Source: an uncultured Acidobacteriota bacterium | GTDB taxonomy: Bacteria; Acidobacteriota; Vicinamibacteria; Vicinamibacterales; 2-12-FULL-66-21 | Assembly: GCA_963755695.1 (NCBI GenBank) | Contig: CAVWLB010000008.1 | Coordinates: forward strand, 798,109 to 862,108 | Length of the DNA stretch: 64,000 nucleotides | Direction: 5' to 3' | Part shown: one piece after another, positions 15,412 to 33,482 of the stretch | Numbering within the stretch: position 1 is the first letter of the stretch | Layout: every line of letters begins with the position of its first letter | The notes under the pieces: generated by a model | What the model was told of the DNA's origin: nothing | Seen by the model: only the letters and a program-made list of their open reading frames with translations | Databases searched by the model: none | Made by a program: the position numbers and the translations under genes

Positions 15412-15506
15412 GGTGAGGTGGCCGAGAGGCTGAAGGCGGCGGTTTGCTAAACCGTTGTAGGGTCTTTAAAACCCTACCCAGGGTTCGAATCCCTGCCTCA
15501 CCGCCA
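15412..15506 (+). tRNA. tRNA-Ser (anticodon GCT)
   Basis: Folded by hand. Acceptor GGTGAGG/CCTCACC, 3-bp D-stem, anticodon loop UUGCUAA, long variable arm, T-loop TTCGAAT, discriminator G, encoded CCA. Confidence 0.9.
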
Positions 15507-23657: not shown

Positions 23658-25219
<1,562 letters not shown>

Positions 25220-25486
25220 GGCGCGGTCCACGACCCGTGGCTGGTCGGAAAGTCATTTCCGAATCGGGCTATTTCCGTTCTCGTTTTCCTCGCTCGATCT
25301 CATGCGGCGCCTGCCGGCAAGGCAAAACAACGGAAATGTACGTCACTGATTTCCTCTTTCACTACCTTTGGTAAGTTCCATCGATTCAATCAATTAGATG
25401 CGATCTTGTGGCACTGCCGTTGCAGTGGCTGGGCTCGCCTGAAACGATGGTCTCAAAACCCGTGGCACCGGGAAGGGGGGCAGCAA

Positions 25487-25711
25487 GTGGCCAAGGAAGA
25501 TCGTGGATTTGCATCGATGGATAGGGCCAAGCAGCGGGAGATTGCGAGCAAGGGCGGGAAAGCGGCGCACCAGAAGGGTACTGCGCACGAGTGGACGAGC
25601 GAGGAAGCGCGCGACGCCGGTCGCAAGGGCGGCATCGCCAGCCATCGCCGTCGCCGCGAGCAGTCTGGGAAGCACGCCCGGACAGGAGATGGCCGAGCGT
25701 GGGATTGGTGA
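25487..25711 (+). CDS. KGG-repeat general stress protein (YciG-like)
   Basis: GFASMDRAKQREIASKGGKAAH...GRKGGIASH motif pairs. G-rich RBS 6 nt upstream of a GTG start. AT-rich upstream leader. Confidence 0.6.
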   Translation: MAKEDRGFASMDRAKQREIASKGGKAAHQKGTAHEWTSEEARDAGRKGGIASHRRRREQSGKHARTGDGRAWDW

Positions 25712-25920
25712 CGCCGAGTCGCAGCATCGATCTCGACGGACAACGAGTAGCTTCGAGGGGTTGCCAGGGCCCCTCGCCTTCCCCTAATCGACTCTCGGGT
25801 GCGCCGCCGACATGCGTACGAGTGACGCGTGTCGGTGACGCGGTCCTGTCTCTCCTGACATCGACCCGCCGCTGGAACGAGCTGAGTCTTTCCCTCCGCT
25901 GTTAGACTAGGCGGGCCGTC

Positions 25921-26546
25921 ATGACCCCAGACGAATACGCCCGCGCGCCGGCGCGTGCTGATGCGCCGCGATCCGGTCCTTGCGCCCGTCATCAAGAAAC
26001 ATCGCGAGCGGTCGTTGATCGAAGCGGCCTCCCGTGGATCCCTTCTCTGCGCTCGTCCGGGCGATCATCGGTCAGCAGCTCTCGACGAAAGCCGCCGCCA
26101 CGATTCATCGACGGCTGATCGGCGTTGATGCCGGGCGGCATTGCGACGCCGCAAGCCATTGCTCGCCCTTGCCGACGCGAGCTGCGTCAGGTCGGCATGA
26201 GCCGCCAGAAGAGCGCCTACCTCCGCGATCTTGCCGCGAAGGTCGCGAGCGGCGAGCTGCCGCTCGACTCGCTCTCTGAGATGACCGACGACGAGGTGAT
26301 CGAGGCGATCACCAAGGTCAAGGGCCTCGGCCGCTGGTCGGCCGAGATGTTCCTGATGTTCCGCCTGCACCGGCCCGACGTGCTTCCCGTGGACGATCTC
26401 GGCATCGTCAACGCCATCCAGCGCCTTTACAGGCTGCGCAAGAAGCCCAGCGCCGATCGCATCCGCAAGATCGGCGAAGCTGGCGGCCGTATCGCACCGT
26501 CGCGTGCTGGTACCTGTGGCGAAGTCTGGAGAACACGCCTCAATGA
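25921..26546 (+). pseudogene. HhH-GPD DNA glycosylase (3-methyladenine glycosylase II/AlkA-like) with at least 3 frame breaks
   Basis: Pieces MTPDEYARA, RRDPVLAPVIKKH, PFSALVRAIIGQQLSTKAAATIHRRL, GLGRWSAEMFLMFRLHRPDVLPVDDLGI and VACWYLWRSL occur in different frames. Confidence 0.65.
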
Positions 26547-29500
26547 AACCACTGCCGCGGATTGCACGGATCACACGGATTGGCATGCTCGCCATTGCGA
26601 TCGCCGCGGGGTTCGTCTCCGTGCGCGCGCCAGCAGACGGACGCGCAACAGGCCGAGAAAAAGGACGAAAAGAAGTGGGACGTCGCCGCCGATCTCGGCC
26701 CGACCCAGAAGCTGGCGTTCGACACGTCCGAAGGGACGTGGATGAACGTCGACGTCAGCCCCGACGGCCGCGCAGATCGTGTTCGACCTGCTCGGCGACA
26801 TCTACGTGATGCCGATCGGCCGGCAGCGGGAGCGTCGCCGGCGACGCGGATCACCAGCGGGCCCGCCTTCGACATGCAGCCGCGATTCAGTCCCGACGGC
26901 AAGCGCATCGCCTTCTCGCAGCGATCGCGACGGCCTGTGGAACATCTGGACGATCGACGTCGACGGGAAGAACGCGAAGCAGGTCTCGCGAGAGAAGCGC
27001 TGGTTCGTCAACAGCCCGACCTGGTCGCCGACGGCGACTACATCTTCGCGCGGCGTCACTTCGTCGCGGAGCGCTCGCTCGGCGCCGGCGAGATCTGGAT
27101 GTTCCACGCGAGCGGGTCCGACGGCCTGCAGGTCACCGAGAAGAACGGCTTCCAGAAGGACGCCGGCGAGCCGGCGGTTTCGCCCGACGGCCGCTACCTC
27201 TATTACAGCAAGGACGTCACGCCGGGCCAGACGTTCGAATACAACAAGGATCCGAACGGCACGATCTACGCGATCATCCGCCGCGATCTGACGACCGGCC
27301 GCGAGCGCCGCGTCGTCAGCGTCCAGGGCGGATCGGTCACGCCGCGTCCGTCGCCCGACGGCAAGTCGCTCGCCTACGTCCGCCGCGTGCGCCTCAGAGC
27401 CAGCTGTTCGTCCGCGATCTCGAGACGCGGCCGCGACCGCGCGTTCTTCGAGCACCTCGACAAGGATCTGCAGGAAGCGTGGGCGATCCACGGCCTGTAT
27501 CCGCAGTACGCCTGGACGCCGGACGGCAAGGTCGATCGTCATCTGGGGCGAGGGAAAGATCTGGCGCGTCGACGTCGCGACCGGCGAAGGGCGCGCGATT
27601 CCGTTCACCGCGCACGTCGAGCAGACGGTCAACGACGCGGTGCGCTTCCCGCAGAAGGTCTACACGCCGGAGTTCCCGGTGAAGATGCTGCGCGACGTCG
27701 CGATCTCGCCCGACGGCAAGCGCGTCGTCTACAGCGCGCTCGGCCAGCTCTATGTCACGGCGCTCTCGCCGGCGCGGCGACGCCGAAGCGCGGTCACCAG
27801 CGGACGACCGCGTTCGAGTTCGTTCCGTCGTGGTCGGCGACGGGCAGTGGATCGTCTACACGACGTGGACCGACGCGGACTACGGCCGCGTGCGCGTCGT
27901 CAGGCCCGACGGCACCGGCGGCCGCGACGTCGTCACGCACGCCGGGCCACTACGTCGAGCCGTCGTTCTCGCCCGACGGCAAGATGGATCGTCTTCCGCC
28001 ACGCCGGCGGCGACCCGATCCGCGGCCCGTTCTACGGCGACGAGCCCGGCATCTACGTCGTGCCGACCGACGGTCGGCGGCGCCGCGGCTCGTGCGCGAG
28101 GGCGGCACCGAGCCGAGTTCGATCACACCGGCACGCGCATCTACGTCAGCGACTCGCGCAACGAGCAAGTCCGTGCTGCTCAGCGTCGGCGTCGGCGACC
28201 GGCGTCGCCGCTGCCGGGCCGCGACGAGATCGTGCACTTCCAGTCCGAGAACGCCGACGCAGATCGTGCCGTCGCCCGACGGCAAGTGGGTGGCGTTCGC
28301 AGAGCGGTGGCACGCGTACGTCGCGCCGTTCCCGCACACCGGCCGCCCGGTCGACTTGGGCCCGACGATCGAGGGCTATCCGGTCGCGCGCATCTCGCGC
28401 GACGCCGGGTTCTACCTGCACTGGTCCGGCGACAGCCGCAGGTCTACTGGTCGCTCGGGCCCGGAGCTCTTCACGCGCGATCTCGACGCACACGTTCACG
28501 TTCCTCGACAGCGGCCTCGCGAAGCCCGACGAGCCCGAGGCCAAGGGCGTCCACATCGGCTTCACCGCGAAGAGCGACGTGCCGGACGGCGTCGATCGCG
28601 CTCGTCGGCGCGCGGGTCATCACGATGGCGGCGGCCGGCCCGATCAGGACGCCGGCGTGATCGAGAACGGCACGGTCGTCGTCGAGGGCAACCGCATCAC
28701 CGCGGTCGGGCCGTCATCGTCGGTCAGTGTGCCGGCGCGGCGCGAAGCGCATCGACGTCGCAGGCAAGACGATCATGCCGGGCATCGTCGACGTGCACGG
28801 GCACGTCGGCGGCGAAGGGGACGGCATCCTCGCGCAGATCGAGCTGGCCGCTTGCGGCGAACCTCGCGTTCGGCGTGACGACGTCGCACGATCCGTCGAA
28901 CGACACCGAGACCGTGTTCACGAACGCCGAGCTGATTCGCGCCGGGCGCGAAGCTCGGGCCGCGGCTGTTCTCGACCGGCACGATCCTCTACGGCGCCGA
29001 GACGCCGTTCAAGGCGGTCGATCGAGAACTACGACGATGCGCTGTCGCACTGCGGCGGCAGAAGGCGGTGGGCGCGTTCCGCGTCAAGAGCTACAACCAG
29101 CAGCGCCGCGACGCGCGGCAGATGATCATCAAGGCCGCGCGCGAGCTGCAGATGAGGTCGTGCCCGAGGGCGGGCTCGCTGCTCTACATGAACGAGACGA
29201 TGATCCTCGACGGCCACACCGAGCGTCGAGCACTCGCTGCCGGTGCCGCAGCTCTACAAGGACGTCGTCACGCTGTTCGCGAAGAGCAAGACCGGCTACA
29301 CGCCGACGCTGATCGTCGGCTACGGCGGCCTGTCCGGCGAGTACTACTGGTATCAGCACACCAACGTCTGGGAGAACGAGCGGCTGCTGACGTTCACGCC
29401 GCGCGAGATCGTCGACGCGCGCTCGCGCCGCCGGACTGATGGCGCCGGACGACGACTTCAATCACGTGCTGATTGCCAAGGGCGCCAAGCAGGTGCTCGA

Positions 29501-29845
29501 TGCCGGCGGCTCGGTGCAGCTCGGCGCGCACGGCCAGCTGCAGGGGCTCGGCGCGCACTGGGAGCTGTGGATGCTGCAGCAGGGCGGCATGACGCAATCT
29601 GGAGGCGATCCGGTGCGCGACGATCAACGGTGCGCGCGTGCTCGGCCTCGACGGCGACATCGGGTCGCTCGAGAAAGGCAAGCTCGCCGATCTCATCGTC
29701 CTCGATCGCAATCCGCTCGAGAACATCCGCAACACGCGAGTCGATCGCGATGGTGATGCTGAACGGCCGGCTCTACGACGCGAAGACGCTCAACGAGATC
29801 GGCAACCATCCCCGCGACCGCCTGAAGTTCTGGTGGGAGCGGTGA
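26543..29845 (+). pseudogene. Protein of ~1100 aa fusing a TolB-like PD40 beta-propeller to a metal-dependent amidohydrolase. Readable only by about 10 frame switches
   Basis: Signal peptide. More than 8 PD40 blades (SPDG[KR] recurrent). The C-terminal half carries amidohydrolase motifs (IMPGIVDVHGHVGG..., ...DGHTGVEH..., DLIVLDRNPLENI). The start ATG overlaps the glycosylase stop as ATGA. Confidence 0.7.
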
Positions 29846-29854
29846 CGGCCCTCT

Positions 29855-29952
29855 GGGGTCAGACCCCGCATCCCCGGGGTCTGACCCCACAGCGCGAGCC
29901 CGGGGTCTGACCCCACCTCTCACACTCGAGCCGTTTTTCGGGGTCTGACCCC
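29855..29952. repeat. Array of four 13-bp GC-rich palindromes GGGGTC(T/A)GACCCC
   Basis: Copies at 29855, 29876, 29902 and 29940, spaced 21, 26 and 38 bp apart. Copies 2-4 share a CC(C)GGGGTCTGACCCCA(C/A)C unit. A T5 run precedes copy 4. Confidence 0.8.
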
Positions 29953-29999
29953 AACCTCTGCTCAGAATTTGGCCTGATTCGTTGCGACTTGCGTCGATT

Positions 30000-30032
30000 T
30001 TGCAATTTGTAATATGATATTACAGATTGCAA
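30000..30032. promoter_or_regulatory. AT-rich 16+1+16 inverted repeat (candidate operator) overlapping the regulator start codon
   Basis: TTGCAATTTGTAATAT g ATATTACAGATTGCAA with one mismatch. Its last base is the A of the ATG at 30032. Confidence 0.6.
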
Positions 30033-30453
30033 TGACTCTCGCCCAGAAGCTCCGGCAGCTGCGGCAGCTCGAAGGAGAGCTTCGCGGACTCGGCCGCGAG
30101 CTGACCCAGTCGGAGCTGGTCCGCGCGATCCGCACGGAGCTGGGCGAGACGCATCAGCCAGTCCTATCTCTCGCTCATCGAAAAGGGCGCGCCGCAAGCA
30201 CCTGTCGCACGAATCGCGGCAGCTGCTCGCGCGCTTCTTCAAGGTCCATCCCGGGCTATCTCGTCAGCGACCCGCCGGGATTCCACACCGAGCTCGCGTC
30301 GGAGATCGCGCTCGGTCGAAACCGCGCTCGACCGCTGGCTGGGCGACGGCGCCGCCCGCTTCGCGCACGACCCGGCGCTCGGCCGCGGCGCTCGAGCGCG
30401 TCGCGACGCACGCCGAGTCGCGGCGCTGCCTGGTGCTGCTCGGCGAAATGATG
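30032..30453 (+). CDS. XRE-family HTH transcriptional regulator (ClgR-like position ahead of pspA), apparently frameshifted
   Basis: MTLAQKLRQLRQLEGELRGLGRELTQSELVRAI...ISQSYLSLIEKG HTH. The reading frame changes near 30150. The 3' end is uncertain. Confidence 0.5.
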
Positions 30454-30510
30454 TCGATGCCGGGTCTGATCGATCGCCTGTCGGAAACGCTCGTGCCGGA
30501 GGAGCGGACA

Positions 30511-31110
30511 ATGAACTGGCCGGCGATCTTTCTCGGCTGCTTCGTCATCGGGTTCGTGCTCAGCGTGCTGTCGTTCGCGCTTCGGCGTCGATCGACGCGC
30601 ACGTGCACTTCCCGTGGGAGACATCACGTCGCATGCCGGCGCGTCTTCACAGCGCCGGCACACGGGCACCGCCGTCGGTCCGATCAACTTCGCGACGATG
30701 ACCGCGTTTCTCGCCTGGTTCGGCGGCACCGGCTACCTGCTGACGTCGCAGTTCCGCTGGCTCGTGCTGCCCGCCGTCGGACTGTCGCATCGTGCTCGGG
30801 TTGTGCGGCGCGGCCGTCGTGTTCTGGATCATGGCGCAGGTGCTGTGGTCGCCGAACGAGAACATGCAGAGCGCCGACTACCACATGGTCGGCGTGCTCG
30901 GCCGCCTGAGCCAGCCGATCCGCGAAGGCGGCATCGGCGAGCTGATCTACTCGCACGGCGGCGCGCGCAAGTCGTGCGGCGCGCGCAGCGCCGACGGACG
31001 CGCGATCGAGAAGGGCGCGGAAGTCGTGGTGACGGGCTACGAACGCGGGCATCGCCGTACGGTGCGAGCGACTGGGACGCGATCTGCGGCGGACGAGCCT
31101 GTAGGACGGG
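30511..31110 (+). pseudogene. NfeD-like (YqiJ/YuaF) membrane protein with C-terminal OB-fold, frameshifted
   Basis: TM N-terminus MNWPAIFLGCFVIGFVLSVL. C-terminus GELIYSHGGARKSCGARSADGRAIEKGAEVVVTGYERG. GGAGG RBS. Confidence 0.6.
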
Positions 31111-31142
31111 TCGGTGAGCCCTTCCGGCATGGAGGCGGAACT

Positions 31143-32617
31143 ATGGGTCTTCAGACCATGAGCGTCGGATTCTGGGTCGTTGTCGGGCTGATGGTGCTGG
31201 CCGTGGCGCTGCTCGGATCGTTCCTCGCGTCGCTCTATCGGAAGGCCGGCCCGCACGAAGCGCTGATCGTCTACGGCTTCCGCGGCACGCGCATCGTGAA
31301 AGGGCACGGCACCGTGATCTTTCCGATGGTCGAGTCGTCGCCACGAGCTGTCGCTGGAGCTGATGTCGTTCGACGTCGCGCCCGAAGCAGGACCTCTACA
31401 CCAAGCAGGGCGTGGCGGTCACGGTCGAAGCGGTCGCGCAGATCAAGGTGAAGTCCGACATGCGAGTCGATCGAGACCGCGGCCGAGCAGTTCCTGACCA
31501 AGACGCCGGAGCAGCGCGAGGGCCTGATCCGGCTGGTGATGGAAGGCCACCTGCGCGGCATCATCGGCCAGCTCACGGTCGAGCAGATCGTGAAGGAGCC
31601 GGAGATGGTCGCCGACCGCATGCGCGCCACCTGCGCCGACGACATGAACAAGATGGGCCTCGAGGTGGTCTCGTTCACGATCAAGGAAGTCCGCGACAAG
31701 AACGAGTACATCGTCAACATGGGCCGGCCCGACGTGGCGCGCATCAAGCGCGACGCCGACGTCGCCGCGGCCGAGGCCGAGCGCGACACCGCGATCAAGC
31801 GCGCCGAGGCGACGCGCGAGTCGGCGATCGCCAAGGCGCAGGCCGACCAGGAGCGCGTGCTGGCCGAGACGCTGTCGCAGGCCAAGCAGGCCGAGGCGCA
31901 GCGCGACCTCGAGATCAAGAAGGCGAAGTACGTCGAGACCGTCAAGAAGCAGCAGGCGCAGGCCGACAAGGCCTACGAGATCCAGACCAACATCATGCAG
32001 CAGCAGGTCGTCGCCGAGGCGGTGCGCGTGCAGCAGGTCGAGCGCGAGCAGCAGATCAAGGTGCAGGAAGCGGAGATCCTGCGCCGCGAGAAGGAGCTGA
32101 TCGCGACCGTGCTGAAGCAGGCCGAGATCGAGCGCCAGCGCATCGCGATGCTGGCCGAGGCCGAGAAGCAGCCGGCTGTCGATCGAGGCCGAAGGCCAGC
32201 GCTGCCGCGATCCGCGCTGCAGGGCGAGGCGGAGGCCGACATCATCTTCAAGAAGGGCGACGCCGAAGCGCGGGCGATGAACGTGAAGGCCGAGGCGTTC
32301 CAGGAGTACAACCAGGCGGCGGTCATCGACAAGCTGCTCACGTCGCTGCCGGAGATCGTCGCGGGCGCTCGCCAGCCCGCTGACCAAGGTGGACAAGATC
32401 ACGATCGTGTCCACCGGCAACGGCGACATCGACCGGCATGCACAAGATCACCGGCGACATGACCGAAATCGCGGCGCAGGTGCCGGCGCTGTTCGAGGCG
32501 CTGTCGGGCATGCCGATGGCGGACCTGCTGTCGAAGGTGAGGAAGATCGGCGACAAGGCGCCCGCCCGGAGCGGCAGGAGCGGAGCGAGCGCGGTCGCGG
32601 AGCTGCCTGGCTCGAGC
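31143..32617 (+). pseudogene. Flotillin-like SPFH/band-7 protein (YqiK/FloA-like), frameshifted
   Basis: TM N-terminus. SPFH core (GLIRLVMEGHLRGIIGQLTVEQIVKEPEMVA...). A long Ala/Glu/Gln-rich coiled coil. Multiple frame switches. Confidence 0.7.
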
Positions 32618-32639
32618 GAGGACGTAAGACAGGAGTACC

Positions 32640-33309
32640 ATGGCAGTACTCGAACGCGTCGCCACGCTGGTCCGCGCGAACCTGAACGACCTGATCGATC
32701 GCGCGGAAGATCCGGAGAAGATGATCAAGCAGGTGATCCTCGACATGGAGAACCAGCTGCTGCAGGTGAAGACGCAGGTGGCGATCTCGATGGCCGACCA
32801 GCACCTGCTGCAGAAGAAGCAGAACGGAGCACGAGGACAAGGCGGCCGAGTGGATGCGCAAGGCGGAGCTGGCCGTCGACAAGCAGCAGGACGACCTCGC
32901 GCGCGCGGCGCTCGAGCGCTACCAGAGCTTCACCAAGCTGGCCGAGAGCTTACACGCAGCAGGTCGAGGACCAGAGGCAGCAGGTCGACACGCTGCGCAA
33001 GGCGCTCGCGCAGCTCGATCAGAAGCTGGGCGAGGCGCGGGCGAAGAGCGACCTGCTGCTCGCGCAGCATCGCCGGGCGCGCGCGCTCGAAAAGGCGAAC
33101 GACGCGCAGCTCGTCGTGGGCGGACGCGGCCCGGCCGCCGGCTTCGACCGGATGGAGCGGAAGGTCCAGCGCGCGAGGCCGTCAGCCAGGCCAAGTCCGA
33201 GCTGGTCGCCGACGATGTGGATCGCCGGTTCGAGGCGATGGAGAAGGACGACGAAGTGGGCCGTCTGCTCGACGCGCTCAAGGCTCGTCGCGGCGCCTCT
33301 CCGCAGTAG
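32640..33309 (+). pseudogene. pspA: PspA/IM30 (phage-shock protein A family), frameshifted
   Basis: MAVLERVATLVRANLNDLIDRAEDPEKMIKQVILDMENQLLQVK is the PspA N-terminus. The rest is recovered in 2 other frames. Confidence 0.7.
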
Positions 33310-33360
33310 CCTGGGCGCGGCCGACGTGAGGCGAAGGGCGGACCGGAGTAAGTCCGCCTT

Positions 33361-33389
33361 TTGCCTTTGGCCGAGCCGGTCGCTATAAT
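33361..33389 (+). promoter_or_regulatory. Near-consensus sigma70 promoter for tRNA-Gln
   Basis: TTGCCT, 17-nt spacer, TATAAT. The tRNA 5' end is 20 nt downstream. Confidence 0.65.
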
Positions 33390-33408
33390 CGAAGTTTCCG
33401 CCAGCCGT

Positions 33409-33482
33409 TGGGAGGTCGTTCAACGGTAGGACACGTGGCTCTGGACCACGTTATCGGGGTTCGAATCCCTGCCTCCCAGCCA
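33409..33482 (+). tRNA. tRNA-Gln (anticodon CTG)
   Basis: U1-A72 acceptor pair and G73 discriminator, both Gln hallmarks. Anticodon loop CUCUGGA, T-loop TTCGAAT, encoded CCA. Confidence 0.85.

What the first reader, a model, noticed from the sequence alone, without database searches (positions are those of the whole stretch)
29855..29952. Four tandemly arranged GC-rich 13-bp palindromes GGGGTC(T/A)GACCCC in a 190-bp intergenic region
Four copies of a perfect 6+1+6 palindrome occur within 100 bp. Three share a longer CC(C)GGGGTCTGACCCCA(C/A)C unit, and the first is in the complementary orientation (a self-complementary site read from the other side). Spacings are 21, 26 and 38 bp, and a T5 run directly precedes the last copy. 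Each copy can form a 5-bp stem/3-nt loop hairpin, and each is a typical dimeric-HTH binding site. The array lies between the amidohydrolase gene's end and the autoregulatory palindrome of the XRE regulator. It could be a multi-site operator (for example for the XRE regulator or another dimeric repressor), a REP-like element cluster, or stacked terminator hairpins.
Basis: seen in the sequence. Interest (0 to 1): 0.6.

Follow-up and report, generated by a model that had tools for sequence, protein, structure and literature searches.

The report
Cluster of mobile palindromic DNA repeats
The four GC-rich palindromes are copies of a short selfish repeat that in many bacteria marks both ends of a REP-type (HUH tyrosine) transposase gene and gets scattered between genes; they are not the neighbouring regulator's binding sites, so the finding is real but ordinary.

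Summary
There are four exact GGGGTCWGACCCC palindromes at 29855-29952, none is expected by chance, and there are no others in the 64 kb window.

They are not an XRE operator. Of 71 XRE orthologues with enough upstream sequence, only 3 carry the motif. All keep a different, AT-rich promoter/operator. A syntenic relative (87-89% nucleotide identity) loses homology at the array.

The same 13-mer is a dispersed, clustered repeat in at least 10 bacterial phyla: 62 of 120 fetched 8-kb genome blocks carry 2 or more copies. The only non-generic gene family recurring beside it is a Y1 HUH transposase. In several phyla, and on the Rhodospirillum rubrum plasmid, that gene is flanked on both sides by the motif in inverted orientation. 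These proteins match the TIRYT class (Di Nocera 2013; TnpA_Y1 subclass 2.1; Bertels Group 1). Their terminal repeats have the published consensus GGGGWSAS.

The window array is therefore a lineage-specific cluster of TIRYT-type REP-like repeats, with copies 1 and 2 forming a REPIN-like inverted doublet. No cognate transposase lies in the window, and the genome-wide copy number could not be measured.

Verdict: a new member of a known kind, of low to moderate interest.

The parts
29855..29867 (+). Copy 1, GGGGTCAGACCCC. It has an A centre on the + strand, so it reads as the published end motif GGGGWSAS on +.
   Evidence: the end-motif consensus is from PMC3733652
29876..29888 (-). Copy 2, GGGGTCTGACCCC on +. 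It matches the end motif on the - strand, so it is inverted relative to copy 1.
29854..29889 (.). REPIN-like inverted doublet of copies 1 and 2 with the 8-nt spacer GCATCCCC. It is predicted to form a 15-bp perfect hairpin as a single strand. Doublets with a gcat or gtac spacer recur in Alcaligenaceae genomes.
   Evidence: (I1)
29902..29914 (-). Copy 3, GGGGTCTGACCCC.
29940..29952 (-). Copy 4, GGGGTCTGACCCC, 79 nt upstream of the XRE ATG. It is probably the oldest copy: single copies sit 84-85 nt upstream of the XRE ATG in two related metagenome contigs.
29243..29845 (+). Context: the 3' end of the upstream PD40/amidohydrolase-type gene, which is frameshifted in this assembly. Its stop codon lies 9 nt before copy 1.
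30000..30032 (.). Context, not part of the repeat family: an AT-rich inverted repeat overlapping the XRE start codon. AT-rich inverted repeats occupy the equivalent position upstream of the XRE orthologues (TTGAC -35-like element in 62 of 79), so this is the likely true promoter/operator.
   Evidence: (I4)
30032..30451 (+). Context: the XRE-family regulator gene, frameshifted in the window (intact relatives are 158 aa). It is the first gene of an XRE-NfeD-flotillin-PspA cluster.

Best explanation
The four palindromes are copies of a REP-like repeat family whose unit is Y-GGGGTCWGACCCC-R. The unit is the self-complementary form of the terminal inverted repeat (published consensus GGGGWSAS) that brackets genes for TIRYT-type Y1 HUH transposases. 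These proteins are also known as RAYT Group 1 or TnpA_Y1 subclass 2.1.

Inferred mechanism, by analogy with IS200/IS605 TnpA and E. coli TnpA(REP): the transposase recognises these ends on single-stranded DNA, cuts and rejoins them, and so mobilises or amplifies short units bounded by inverted ends. Copies 1 and 2 form such a unit, a 34-bp REPIN-like doublet.

In the window's Vicinamibacterales lineage one copy appears to have landed upstream of the XRE promoter. It was then expanded to four by further insertion or local duplication, replacing the short terminator-bearing spacer seen in syntenic relatives.

The array is not required for XRE regulation. Any present effect is secondary and untested. 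One possibility is that the two very stable hairpins at the 3' end of the upstream transcript act as an RNA-end protector or insulator, as shown for classical REPs.
For: 1. Dispersal and clustering. Of these, 62 carry 2 or more cores. My own estimate of the chance rate at 65% GC is about 0.001 per block. The viral control gave 2 of 57. The centre base is A or T in 97 of 99 non-selected cores. Blocks with multiple cores come from 10 phyla, including Vicinamibacterales (L152, 4 copies).

2. Associated gene. All-against-all ORF clustering of the 120 blocks gave one non-generic recurrent family. It is Pfam PF01797 Y1_Tnp. It scores 63-79 bits against NCBIfam 'REP-associated tyrosine transposase', just under the 80-bit cut-off. 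It is present in 7 blocks.

3. Bracketing layout. The gene is flanked on both sides by the motif in inverted orientation in L093, L115 and L124, and by a variant in L096.

4. Annotated reference replicon. On the R. rubrum ATCC 11170 plasmid, transposase RRU_RS19765 is flanked by the exact 13-mers. The plasmid also carries 3 more exact copies and one with a single mismatch, in 3 other intergenic regions, including a doublet.

5. Test from the protein side. Homologues found by profile search in Burkholderiales chromosomes and on 4 other plasmids are flanked by GGG(G)WCAGA-type inverted repeats.

6. Protein class. All 7 proteins tested (6 from the genome blocks plus the R. rubrum plasmid transposase) match published TIRYTs (E 1e-23 to 1e-102) far better than canonical RAYTs (E 1e-4 to 1e-15).

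7. Literature. TIRs of TIRYT genes share GGGGWSAS. Some are self-complementary, repeated, and arranged in dimers or clusters (PMC3733652; PMC6006769).

8. Locus-specific evidence. The array is absent from syntenic relatives and from 68 of 71 XRE orthologues.

9. Folding. The single strand folds into two long hairpins, with z-scores of -4.6 as DNA and -5.8 as RNA.
Against: - No Y1 transposase homologue lies in the 64-kb window. The rest of this genome could not be read, so a cognate enzyme and dispersed copies in this organism are not shown.
- There is only one cluster in 64 kb, and no copies in about 50 kb from three related Vicinamibacterales contigs. The family is therefore at best low-copy in this lineage.
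- Copies upstream of XRE in three lineages sit at nearly the same distance from the ATG. Common descent explains this, but local function could too.
- Only 11-16% of copies in other genomes have an extended lower stem.
- No transposition or cleavage activity has been shown for any TIRYT.
- Quentin et al. 2018 reported no REP-like sequences for subclass 2.1.
Confidence: 0.85

Rival explanations
1. The array is a multi-site operator: the four palindromes bind the adjacent XRE regulator or another dimeric helix-turn-helix repressor and control the XRE-NfeD-flotillin-PspA cluster.
For: Each site is a perfect 6+1+6 palindrome, and the array lies upstream of a regulator gene. In three lineages a copy sits 79-85 nt upstream of the XRE ATG.
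Against: The motif is absent upstream of 68 of 71 XRE orthologues, including the closest at 91-95% identity. It is absent from a syntenic relative. The orthologues keep a different AT-rich inverted repeat plus TTGACA. The same 13-mer occurs next to unrelated genes in 10 phyla and brackets transposase genes. No XRE family recurs near the motif in the ORF clustering.
Confidence: 0.04
2. The primary, selected role is as stacked RNA hairpins: a terminator or 3'-end stabiliser for the upstream amidohydrolase transcript, replacing the canonical terminator seen in relatives.
For: The array starts 9 nt after the stop codon. The RNA fold is very stable (-68.9 kcal/mol, z = -5.8). Syntenic relatives have a canonical hairpin plus T-run terminator in this spacer, which is degenerate in the window. 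From established knowledge, classical REPs stabilise upstream mRNA.
Against: No hairpin is followed by a U-tract, and the terminator scan found none in the array. A structural role would not require an exact 13-mer shared across phyla. This reading explains a possible side effect, not the origin.
Confidence: 0.08
3. The array is a scar of a decayed transposase locus. A TIRYT gene once sat here between a left end (copy 1) and right ends (copies 2-4) and was later deleted, so the copies did not arrive by mobilisation of short units.
For: One copy is in 'left-end' orientation and three are in 'right-end' orientation, the same polarity as around TIRYT genes. Multiple right-end copies occur at some TIRYT loci (L272, L271).
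Against: There is no residual transposase-like coding sequence in the spacer or the window. Copies 1 and 2 are only 8 nt apart, like the gcat/gtac doublets dispersed in other genomes without a gene between them. Relatives with a single copy at the same position carry no gene either.
Confidence: 0.03

Closest known systems
TIR repeats and 'TIRtrons' of TIR-associated tyrosine transposases (TIRYT; Di Nocera et al. 2013, PMC3733652), equivalent to TnpA_Y1 subclass 2.1 (Quentin et al. 2018, PMC6006769) and RAYT Group 1 (Bertels et al. 2017, PMC5581495)
   Same: The end motif GGGGTCAG fits the published consensus GGGGWSAS. The motif brackets the Y1 transposase gene in inverted orientation. The flanked proteins are closest to published TIRYTs. 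The published descriptions of self-complementary variants, dimers and clusters, and moderately abundant families fit what is seen here.
   Different: The exact 13-bp perfect palindrome was found in none of the 8 million papers and preprints searched. Here it is shown unchanged in 10 phyla. Quentin et al. reported no REP-like sequence for this subclass. No cognate gene is seen in the window.
Classical REP/REPIN-RAYT systems (E. coli TnpA(REP), Pseudomonas Group 3 RAYTs; BIMEs)
   Same: They are short GC-rich extragenic palindromes, often in inverted doublets and clusters, associated with a single-copy domesticated Y1 HUH transposase flanked by its own repeats. Single-strand hairpins are the presumed substrate.
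   Different: Canonical REPs carry a 5' GT[AG]G tetranucleotide at the hairpin foot and are lineage-specific in sequence. This family has no such tag (flank profile). Its conserved part is the whole hairpin, and it is the same across phyla. The proteins belong to a different RAYT subclass and fall just under the NCBIfam RAYT cut-off.
IS200/IS605 subterminal hairpins (TnpA Y1 transposase)
   Same: The same HUH/Y1 catalytic fold family (PF01797), with DNA hairpins at the element ends.
   Different: IS200/IS605 ends are imperfect, non-identical left and right hairpins within a multi-copy autonomous IS. Here the gene is typically single-copy and syntenic (upstream of gltB in Burkholderiales), and the short repeat is what multiplies.

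Membership tests
TIRYT-associated TIR repeats (TIRtron) | The repeat carries the end motif GGGGWSAS | tested here: met
   GGGGTCAG is read on one strand of every copy. The consensus comes from PMC3733652.
TIRYT-associated TIR repeats (TIRtron) | The same repeat brackets a TIRYT gene in inverted orientation | tested here: met
   Met in other genomes: L093, L115, L124 and the R. rubrum plasmid carry the exact 13-mer on both sides. L096, L258-L262, L268, L269 and L272 carry variants. Not testable in the window's own genome, and no homologue lies in the 64 kb.
TIRYT-associated TIR repeats (TIRtron) | The bracketed protein belongs to the TIRYT / subclass 2.1 clade rather than to the canonical RAYTs | tested here: met
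   BLASTP against published TIRYTs gave E 1e-23 to 1e-102, against 1e-4 to 1e-15 for E. coli, Pseudomonas and Stenotrophomonas RAYTs. The motifs NH[VYF]H and Y[IV]xxNP are present (table).
REP/REPIN-RAYT system (canonical) | A 5' GT[AG]G tetranucleotide at the foot of the hairpin | tested here: not met
   The flank profile of 169 copies shows only Y at -1 and R at +1, with no GTAG or GTGG. The window copies have none.
REP/REPIN-RAYT system (canonical) | Many dispersed extragenic copies in the same genome | not testable with these tools
   Only 64 kb of this genome is available, with one cluster. In other genomes, 62 of 120 blocks carry 2 or more copies, and the R. rubrum plasmid has 6 copies in 4 intergenic regions. 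A test of extragenic location by ORF span in GC-rich blocks was inconclusive.
REP/REPIN-RAYT system (canonical) | Inverted doublets (REPINs) able to form a long hairpin | tested here: met
   Copies 1 and 2 form 15-21 nt complementary arms and a predicted 15-bp hairpin. The same doublet type occurs in L080 and L140.
Transcription-factor operator of the adjacent XRE gene | The site is conserved upstream of orthologous regulator genes | tested here: not met
   3 of 71 orthologues with at least 150 nt of upstream sequence carry the motif. It is absent in the syntenic relative L265.
Intrinsic (Rho-independent) terminator | A GC-rich hairpin immediately followed by a U-tract | tested here: not met
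   The terminator scan found no site in 29845-29960. The sequence after each copy is not T-rich.
Known structured RNA (Rfam) | A match to a curated covariance model | tested here: not met
   No hit with E <= 1 in 29000-31000. Only two tRNAs were found in the whole window.

The most novel reading that the evidence does not exclude
GGGGTCWGACCCC may be the minimal, universally conserved substrate of the largest and least understood RAYT group (Group 1 / subclass 2.1 / TIRYT). A single 13-bp palindrome would contain both transposon ends and would be kept unchanged across at least 10 phyla. That would make it a REP class that earlier surveys missed or reported as absent for this subclass. It would give a defined DNA substrate for biochemistry, and a marker for tracing horizontal spread of these 'domesticated' transposases.
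Probability: 0.4. Interest if true: 0.5.

Novelty: new member of a known kind. Interest (0 to 1): 0.3.

Why it matters
For genome annotation, these sites should be labelled as REP/TIR-type repeats and not as operators. The real XRE control region is the AT-rich repeat next to the start codon.

More broadly, classical REPs differ from lineage to lineage, whereas this 13-mer is identical from Patescibacteria to Actinomycetota and Pseudomonadota and brackets TIRYT genes. That gives a concrete candidate substrate for a transposase group whose function is unknown and for which REPs were reported as lacking. It is a useful lead for specialists, but it does not change the known picture of REP-RAYT biology.

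Tried and rejected
- **Rfam:** a scan of the region and of the whole window found no RNA family.
- **Promoter and terminator consensus scan:** nothing in the array.
- **Literature search for the exact string:** no paper contains it.
- **Exact-protein look-up to find the source contig:** not on record.
- **Extragenic location across the 120 genome blocks, tested by ORF span:** uninformative, because GC-rich DNA has long spurious ORFs in all frames. 88% of cores against 98% of random positions are spanned by an ORF of 300 nt or more.
- **BLAST of a 30-nt doublet against plasmids:** no match, probably because the query is short or was filtered.
- **Tn3-family inverted repeat:** Tn3's repeat also begins GGGGTCTGAC (from memory). 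I rejected this because the associated gene is a Y1 transposase, not a DDE Tn3 transposase.
- **attC sites, CRISPR repeats, parS-type or matS-type arrays and uptake sequences:** rejected on sequence, layout and cross-phylum distribution.
- **Conserved hairpin with a covarying lower stem:** only 11-16% of copies extend the stem, so this is a feature of some genome-specific subfamilies and not of the family as a whole.
- **Simple half-site count for the AT-rich XRE operator:** too strict, scoring 31 of 76. The visual listing and the TTGAC count of 62 of 79 are the usable evidence.

Full report
**Observation**

The window holds four exact copies of GGGGTCNGACCCC at 29855, 29876, 29902 and 29940. 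None occurred in 100 dinucleotide-preserving shuffles. Allowing two mismatches adds only two unrelated sites, at chance level. Start-to-start spacings are 21, 26 and 38.

All four copies are the same asymmetric 15-mer, CGGGGTCTGACCCCA, with copy 1 on the other strand. They occupy the 186-nt spacer between the stop codon (29843-29845) of a frameshifted PD40/amidohydrolase-type gene and the ATG (30032) of an XRE-family regulator. A separate AT-rich inverted repeat lies at 30000-30032.

**What the motif is elsewhere**

Of these, 62 carry two or more 13-mer cores, up to eight. My own composition-based estimate of the chance rate for a second copy is about 0.001 per block at 65% GC. In viral contigs only 2 of 57 hits had a second copy.

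In cores not selected by the search pattern, the centre base is A or T in 97 of 99. The flanking bases are mostly Y and R.

Blocks with multiple copies come from 10 phyla: Pseudomonadota, Actinomycetota, Acidobacteriota (including Vicinamibacterales L152 with four copies), Gemmatimonadota, Bacillota, Planctomycetota, Omnitrophota, Spirochaetota, Victivallales and Paceibacterota.

Inverted doublets such as GGGGTCAGACCCC-gcat/gtac-GGGGTCTGACCCC recur in these genomes. Copies 1 and 2 of the window form the same arrangement, with spacer gcatcccc.

**The associated gene**

All-against-all clustering of every ORF in the 120 blocks gave only generic families (ABC ATPases, short-chain dehydrogenases) and one specific one. 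The specific family lay directly beside the motif.

- It is a Y1 HUH transposase (PF01797).
- It scores 63-79 bits against NCBIfam 'REP-associated tyrosine transposase', whose cut-off is 80.
- It is present in 7 blocks.

In L093 (Iamiaceae), L115 (Gaiellaceae) and L124 (Paceibacterota) the gene is bracketed by exact 13-mers in inverted orientation. In gene orientation the upstream copy reads GGGGTCAG... and the downstream copy reads ...CTGACCCC. L096 has the variant GGGGACAGACCAC / GTGGTCTGTCCCC.

**Test from the protein side**

A profile of these proteins finds more than 4000 relatives. Four Burkholderiales examples lie in a conserved position upstream of gltB. They are flanked by AATGGGGTCAGAGTC-type or AATGGGGTCAGACACCATTT-type inverted repeats.

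Twenty-seven plasmids encode relatives. All five inspected have GGG(G)WCAGA-type terminal repeats.

On the Rhodospirillum rubrum ATCC 11170 plasmid, the annotated transposase RRU_RS19765 is flanked by the exact palindromes. The plasmid also carries three further exact copies and one one-mismatch copy in three other intergenic regions, including a doublet.

**Comparison with the literature**

Di Nocera et al. 2013 (PMC3733652) described RAYT-like genes flanked by terminal inverted repeats. They named the arrangements 'TIRtrons' and the proteins 'TIRYTs'. The repeats share the consensus GGGGWSAS. Some are self-complementary, some form moderately abundant families, and many are arranged in dimers or clusters.

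Quentin et al. 2018 (PMC6006769) equate TIRYTs with TnpA_Y1 subclass 2.1, which is Bertels Group 1. This is the largest and taxonomically widest RAYT group. They reported no REP-like sequence for it.

GGGGTCAG fits GGGGWSAS. All seven motif-flanked proteins tested match the published TIRYT sequences at E 1e-23 to 1e-102. They match canonical RAYTs only at E 1e-4 to 1e-15.

The canonical REP tag GT[AG]G is absent. The element is therefore a TIRYT-type repeat and not a classical GTAG REP. The exact 13-mer string appears in no searchable paper, and only two papers discuss TIRYTs at all.

**The locus itself**

The XRE protein's relatives are Vicinamibacterales (Acidobacteriota). Eighty orthologous loci (64-95% amino-acid identity) were fetched from soil metagenomes. 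Their upstream regions keep a TTGACA-like element followed by AT-rich ATTGCAAT-type inverted repeats that run into the start codon.

Only three of the 71 loci with enough upstream sequence carry the GC-rich motif: L183 and L189 with one copy each, and L184 with two degenerate copies.

Three loci with the same upstream amidohydrolase gene have a short spacer with a canonical terminator and no motif. A long syntenic contig, L265, is 87-89% identical at the nucleotide level on both sides. It loses homology between window positions 29855 and 30007, and it has no copy in 20 kb.

Window copy 4 lies 79 nt upstream of the ATG. The single copies of L183 and L189 lie 84-85 nt upstream and share a left flank with each other. 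I infer one older insertion that expanded to four copies in the window's lineage.

**Mechanism**

Shown:
- The repeat family exists and is clustered in many genomes.
- It brackets TIRYT genes.
- It is present or absent at this locus depending on the lineage.
- The single strand is predicted to fold into two long hairpins, copy 1 with copy 2 and copy 3 with copy 4. The energies are -33.8 kcal/mol as DNA (z = -4.6) and -68.9 kcal/mol as RNA (z = -5.8).

Inferred from established knowledge of IS200/IS605 TnpA and E. coli TnpA(REP):
- The Y1 enzyme acts on single-stranded DNA ends and mobilises or amplifies short units bounded by inverted ends.

Untested:
- Whether this genome still has the enzyme. 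None lies in the 64 kb.
- How many copies the genome holds.
- Whether the hairpins now influence the 3' end of the upstream transcript or read-through into the XRE operon. They are not canonical terminators and match no Rfam family.

**Verdict**

The operator reading is not supported. It is a new member of a known kind.

The one aspect a specialist might find notable is that the palindrome is identical across phyla and is linked to a RAYT subclass previously said to lack REPs. Confidence in the main explanation is 0.85. Interest is 0.3.

Noticed in passing
window 23721-33400 (e.g. gltX 23721-25037; PD40/amidohydrolase 26562-29845; XRE 30032-30451; flotillin from 31536; PspA from 32640): Most genes are split into several overlapping ORFs by frameshifts, as expected of an indel-prone long-read assembly and not of true pseudogenes. 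The syntenic ENA contig L265 shows the same kind of split genes.
   Followed up: partly
window 29985-30034 and L178-L257 upstream regions: The XRE gene has a conserved TTGACA-like element followed by AT-rich ATTGCAAT/TTACAAAT-type inverted repeats that overlap the start codon. This suggests a leaderless or short-leader, autoregulated gene. In the window the -35 reads TTGCGT.
   Followed up: partly
window 30032-33390; L264 10001-13232: The gene cluster XRE regulator - small membrane (NfeD-like) protein - flotillin (Band_7/Flot) - PspA/IM30 is conserved in Vicinamibacterales relatives. It looks like a membrane-stress module under an XRE regulator.
   Followed up: no
L183 1635-1647; L189 158-170; window 29940-29952: Single copies of the palindrome sit 84-85 nt upstream of the XRE ATG in two related contigs that have different upstream genes. 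They share the left flank GGGATGGC. Window copy 4 sits at 79 nt. This is either one ancestral insertion or a preferred insertion spot.
   Followed up: partly
L273 (R. rubrum plasmid NC_007641.1) 32465, 33225, 33942, 35248, 38194, 38215: An annotated reference plasmid carries a complete miniature system: a TIRYT gene bracketed by the exact palindrome, plus four more copies in three other intergenic regions, all with A/T-rich flanks. It would be a convenient experimental model.
   Followed up: yes
L258-L262 (Burkholderiales), gene at 1001-1730 of each locus: The TIRYT gene lies in a conserved position immediately upstream of gltB (glutamate synthase large subunit) in several Burkholderiales. This is consistent with a vertically inherited, domesticated gene.
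   Followed up: no
L156 6173-6910: A Y1-transposase homologue in a Burkholderiaceae chromosome has lost the HUH motif (PDEVRLL in place of NHxHLL). The palindrome still lies next to it, so it may be an inactive relic.
   Followed up: no
L186 380-420, L188, L191; L203 upstream of 742: The same spacer in syntenic relatives carries short tandem GGGGATC(G) repeats before a canonical terminator. Another orthologous locus has tandem TAGGGCA/TAGGGAA heptamers. This intergenic region is generally prone to repeats and is hypervariable.
   Followed up: no
L172 7729-8000; L148 1-427; L152 6337-6563: In some genomes (Halomonas, Acidobacteria, Vicinamibacterales) the palindrome is embedded in longer tandem repeats of 56-95 bp, with up to eight copies in under 300 bp. 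Local tandem amplification therefore adds to dispersal.
   Followed up: no
window 15412-15506 and 33409-33482: tRNA-Ser(GCT) and tRNA-Gln(CTG) genes. The tRNA-Gln gene lies directly downstream of the PspA gene.
   Followed up: no
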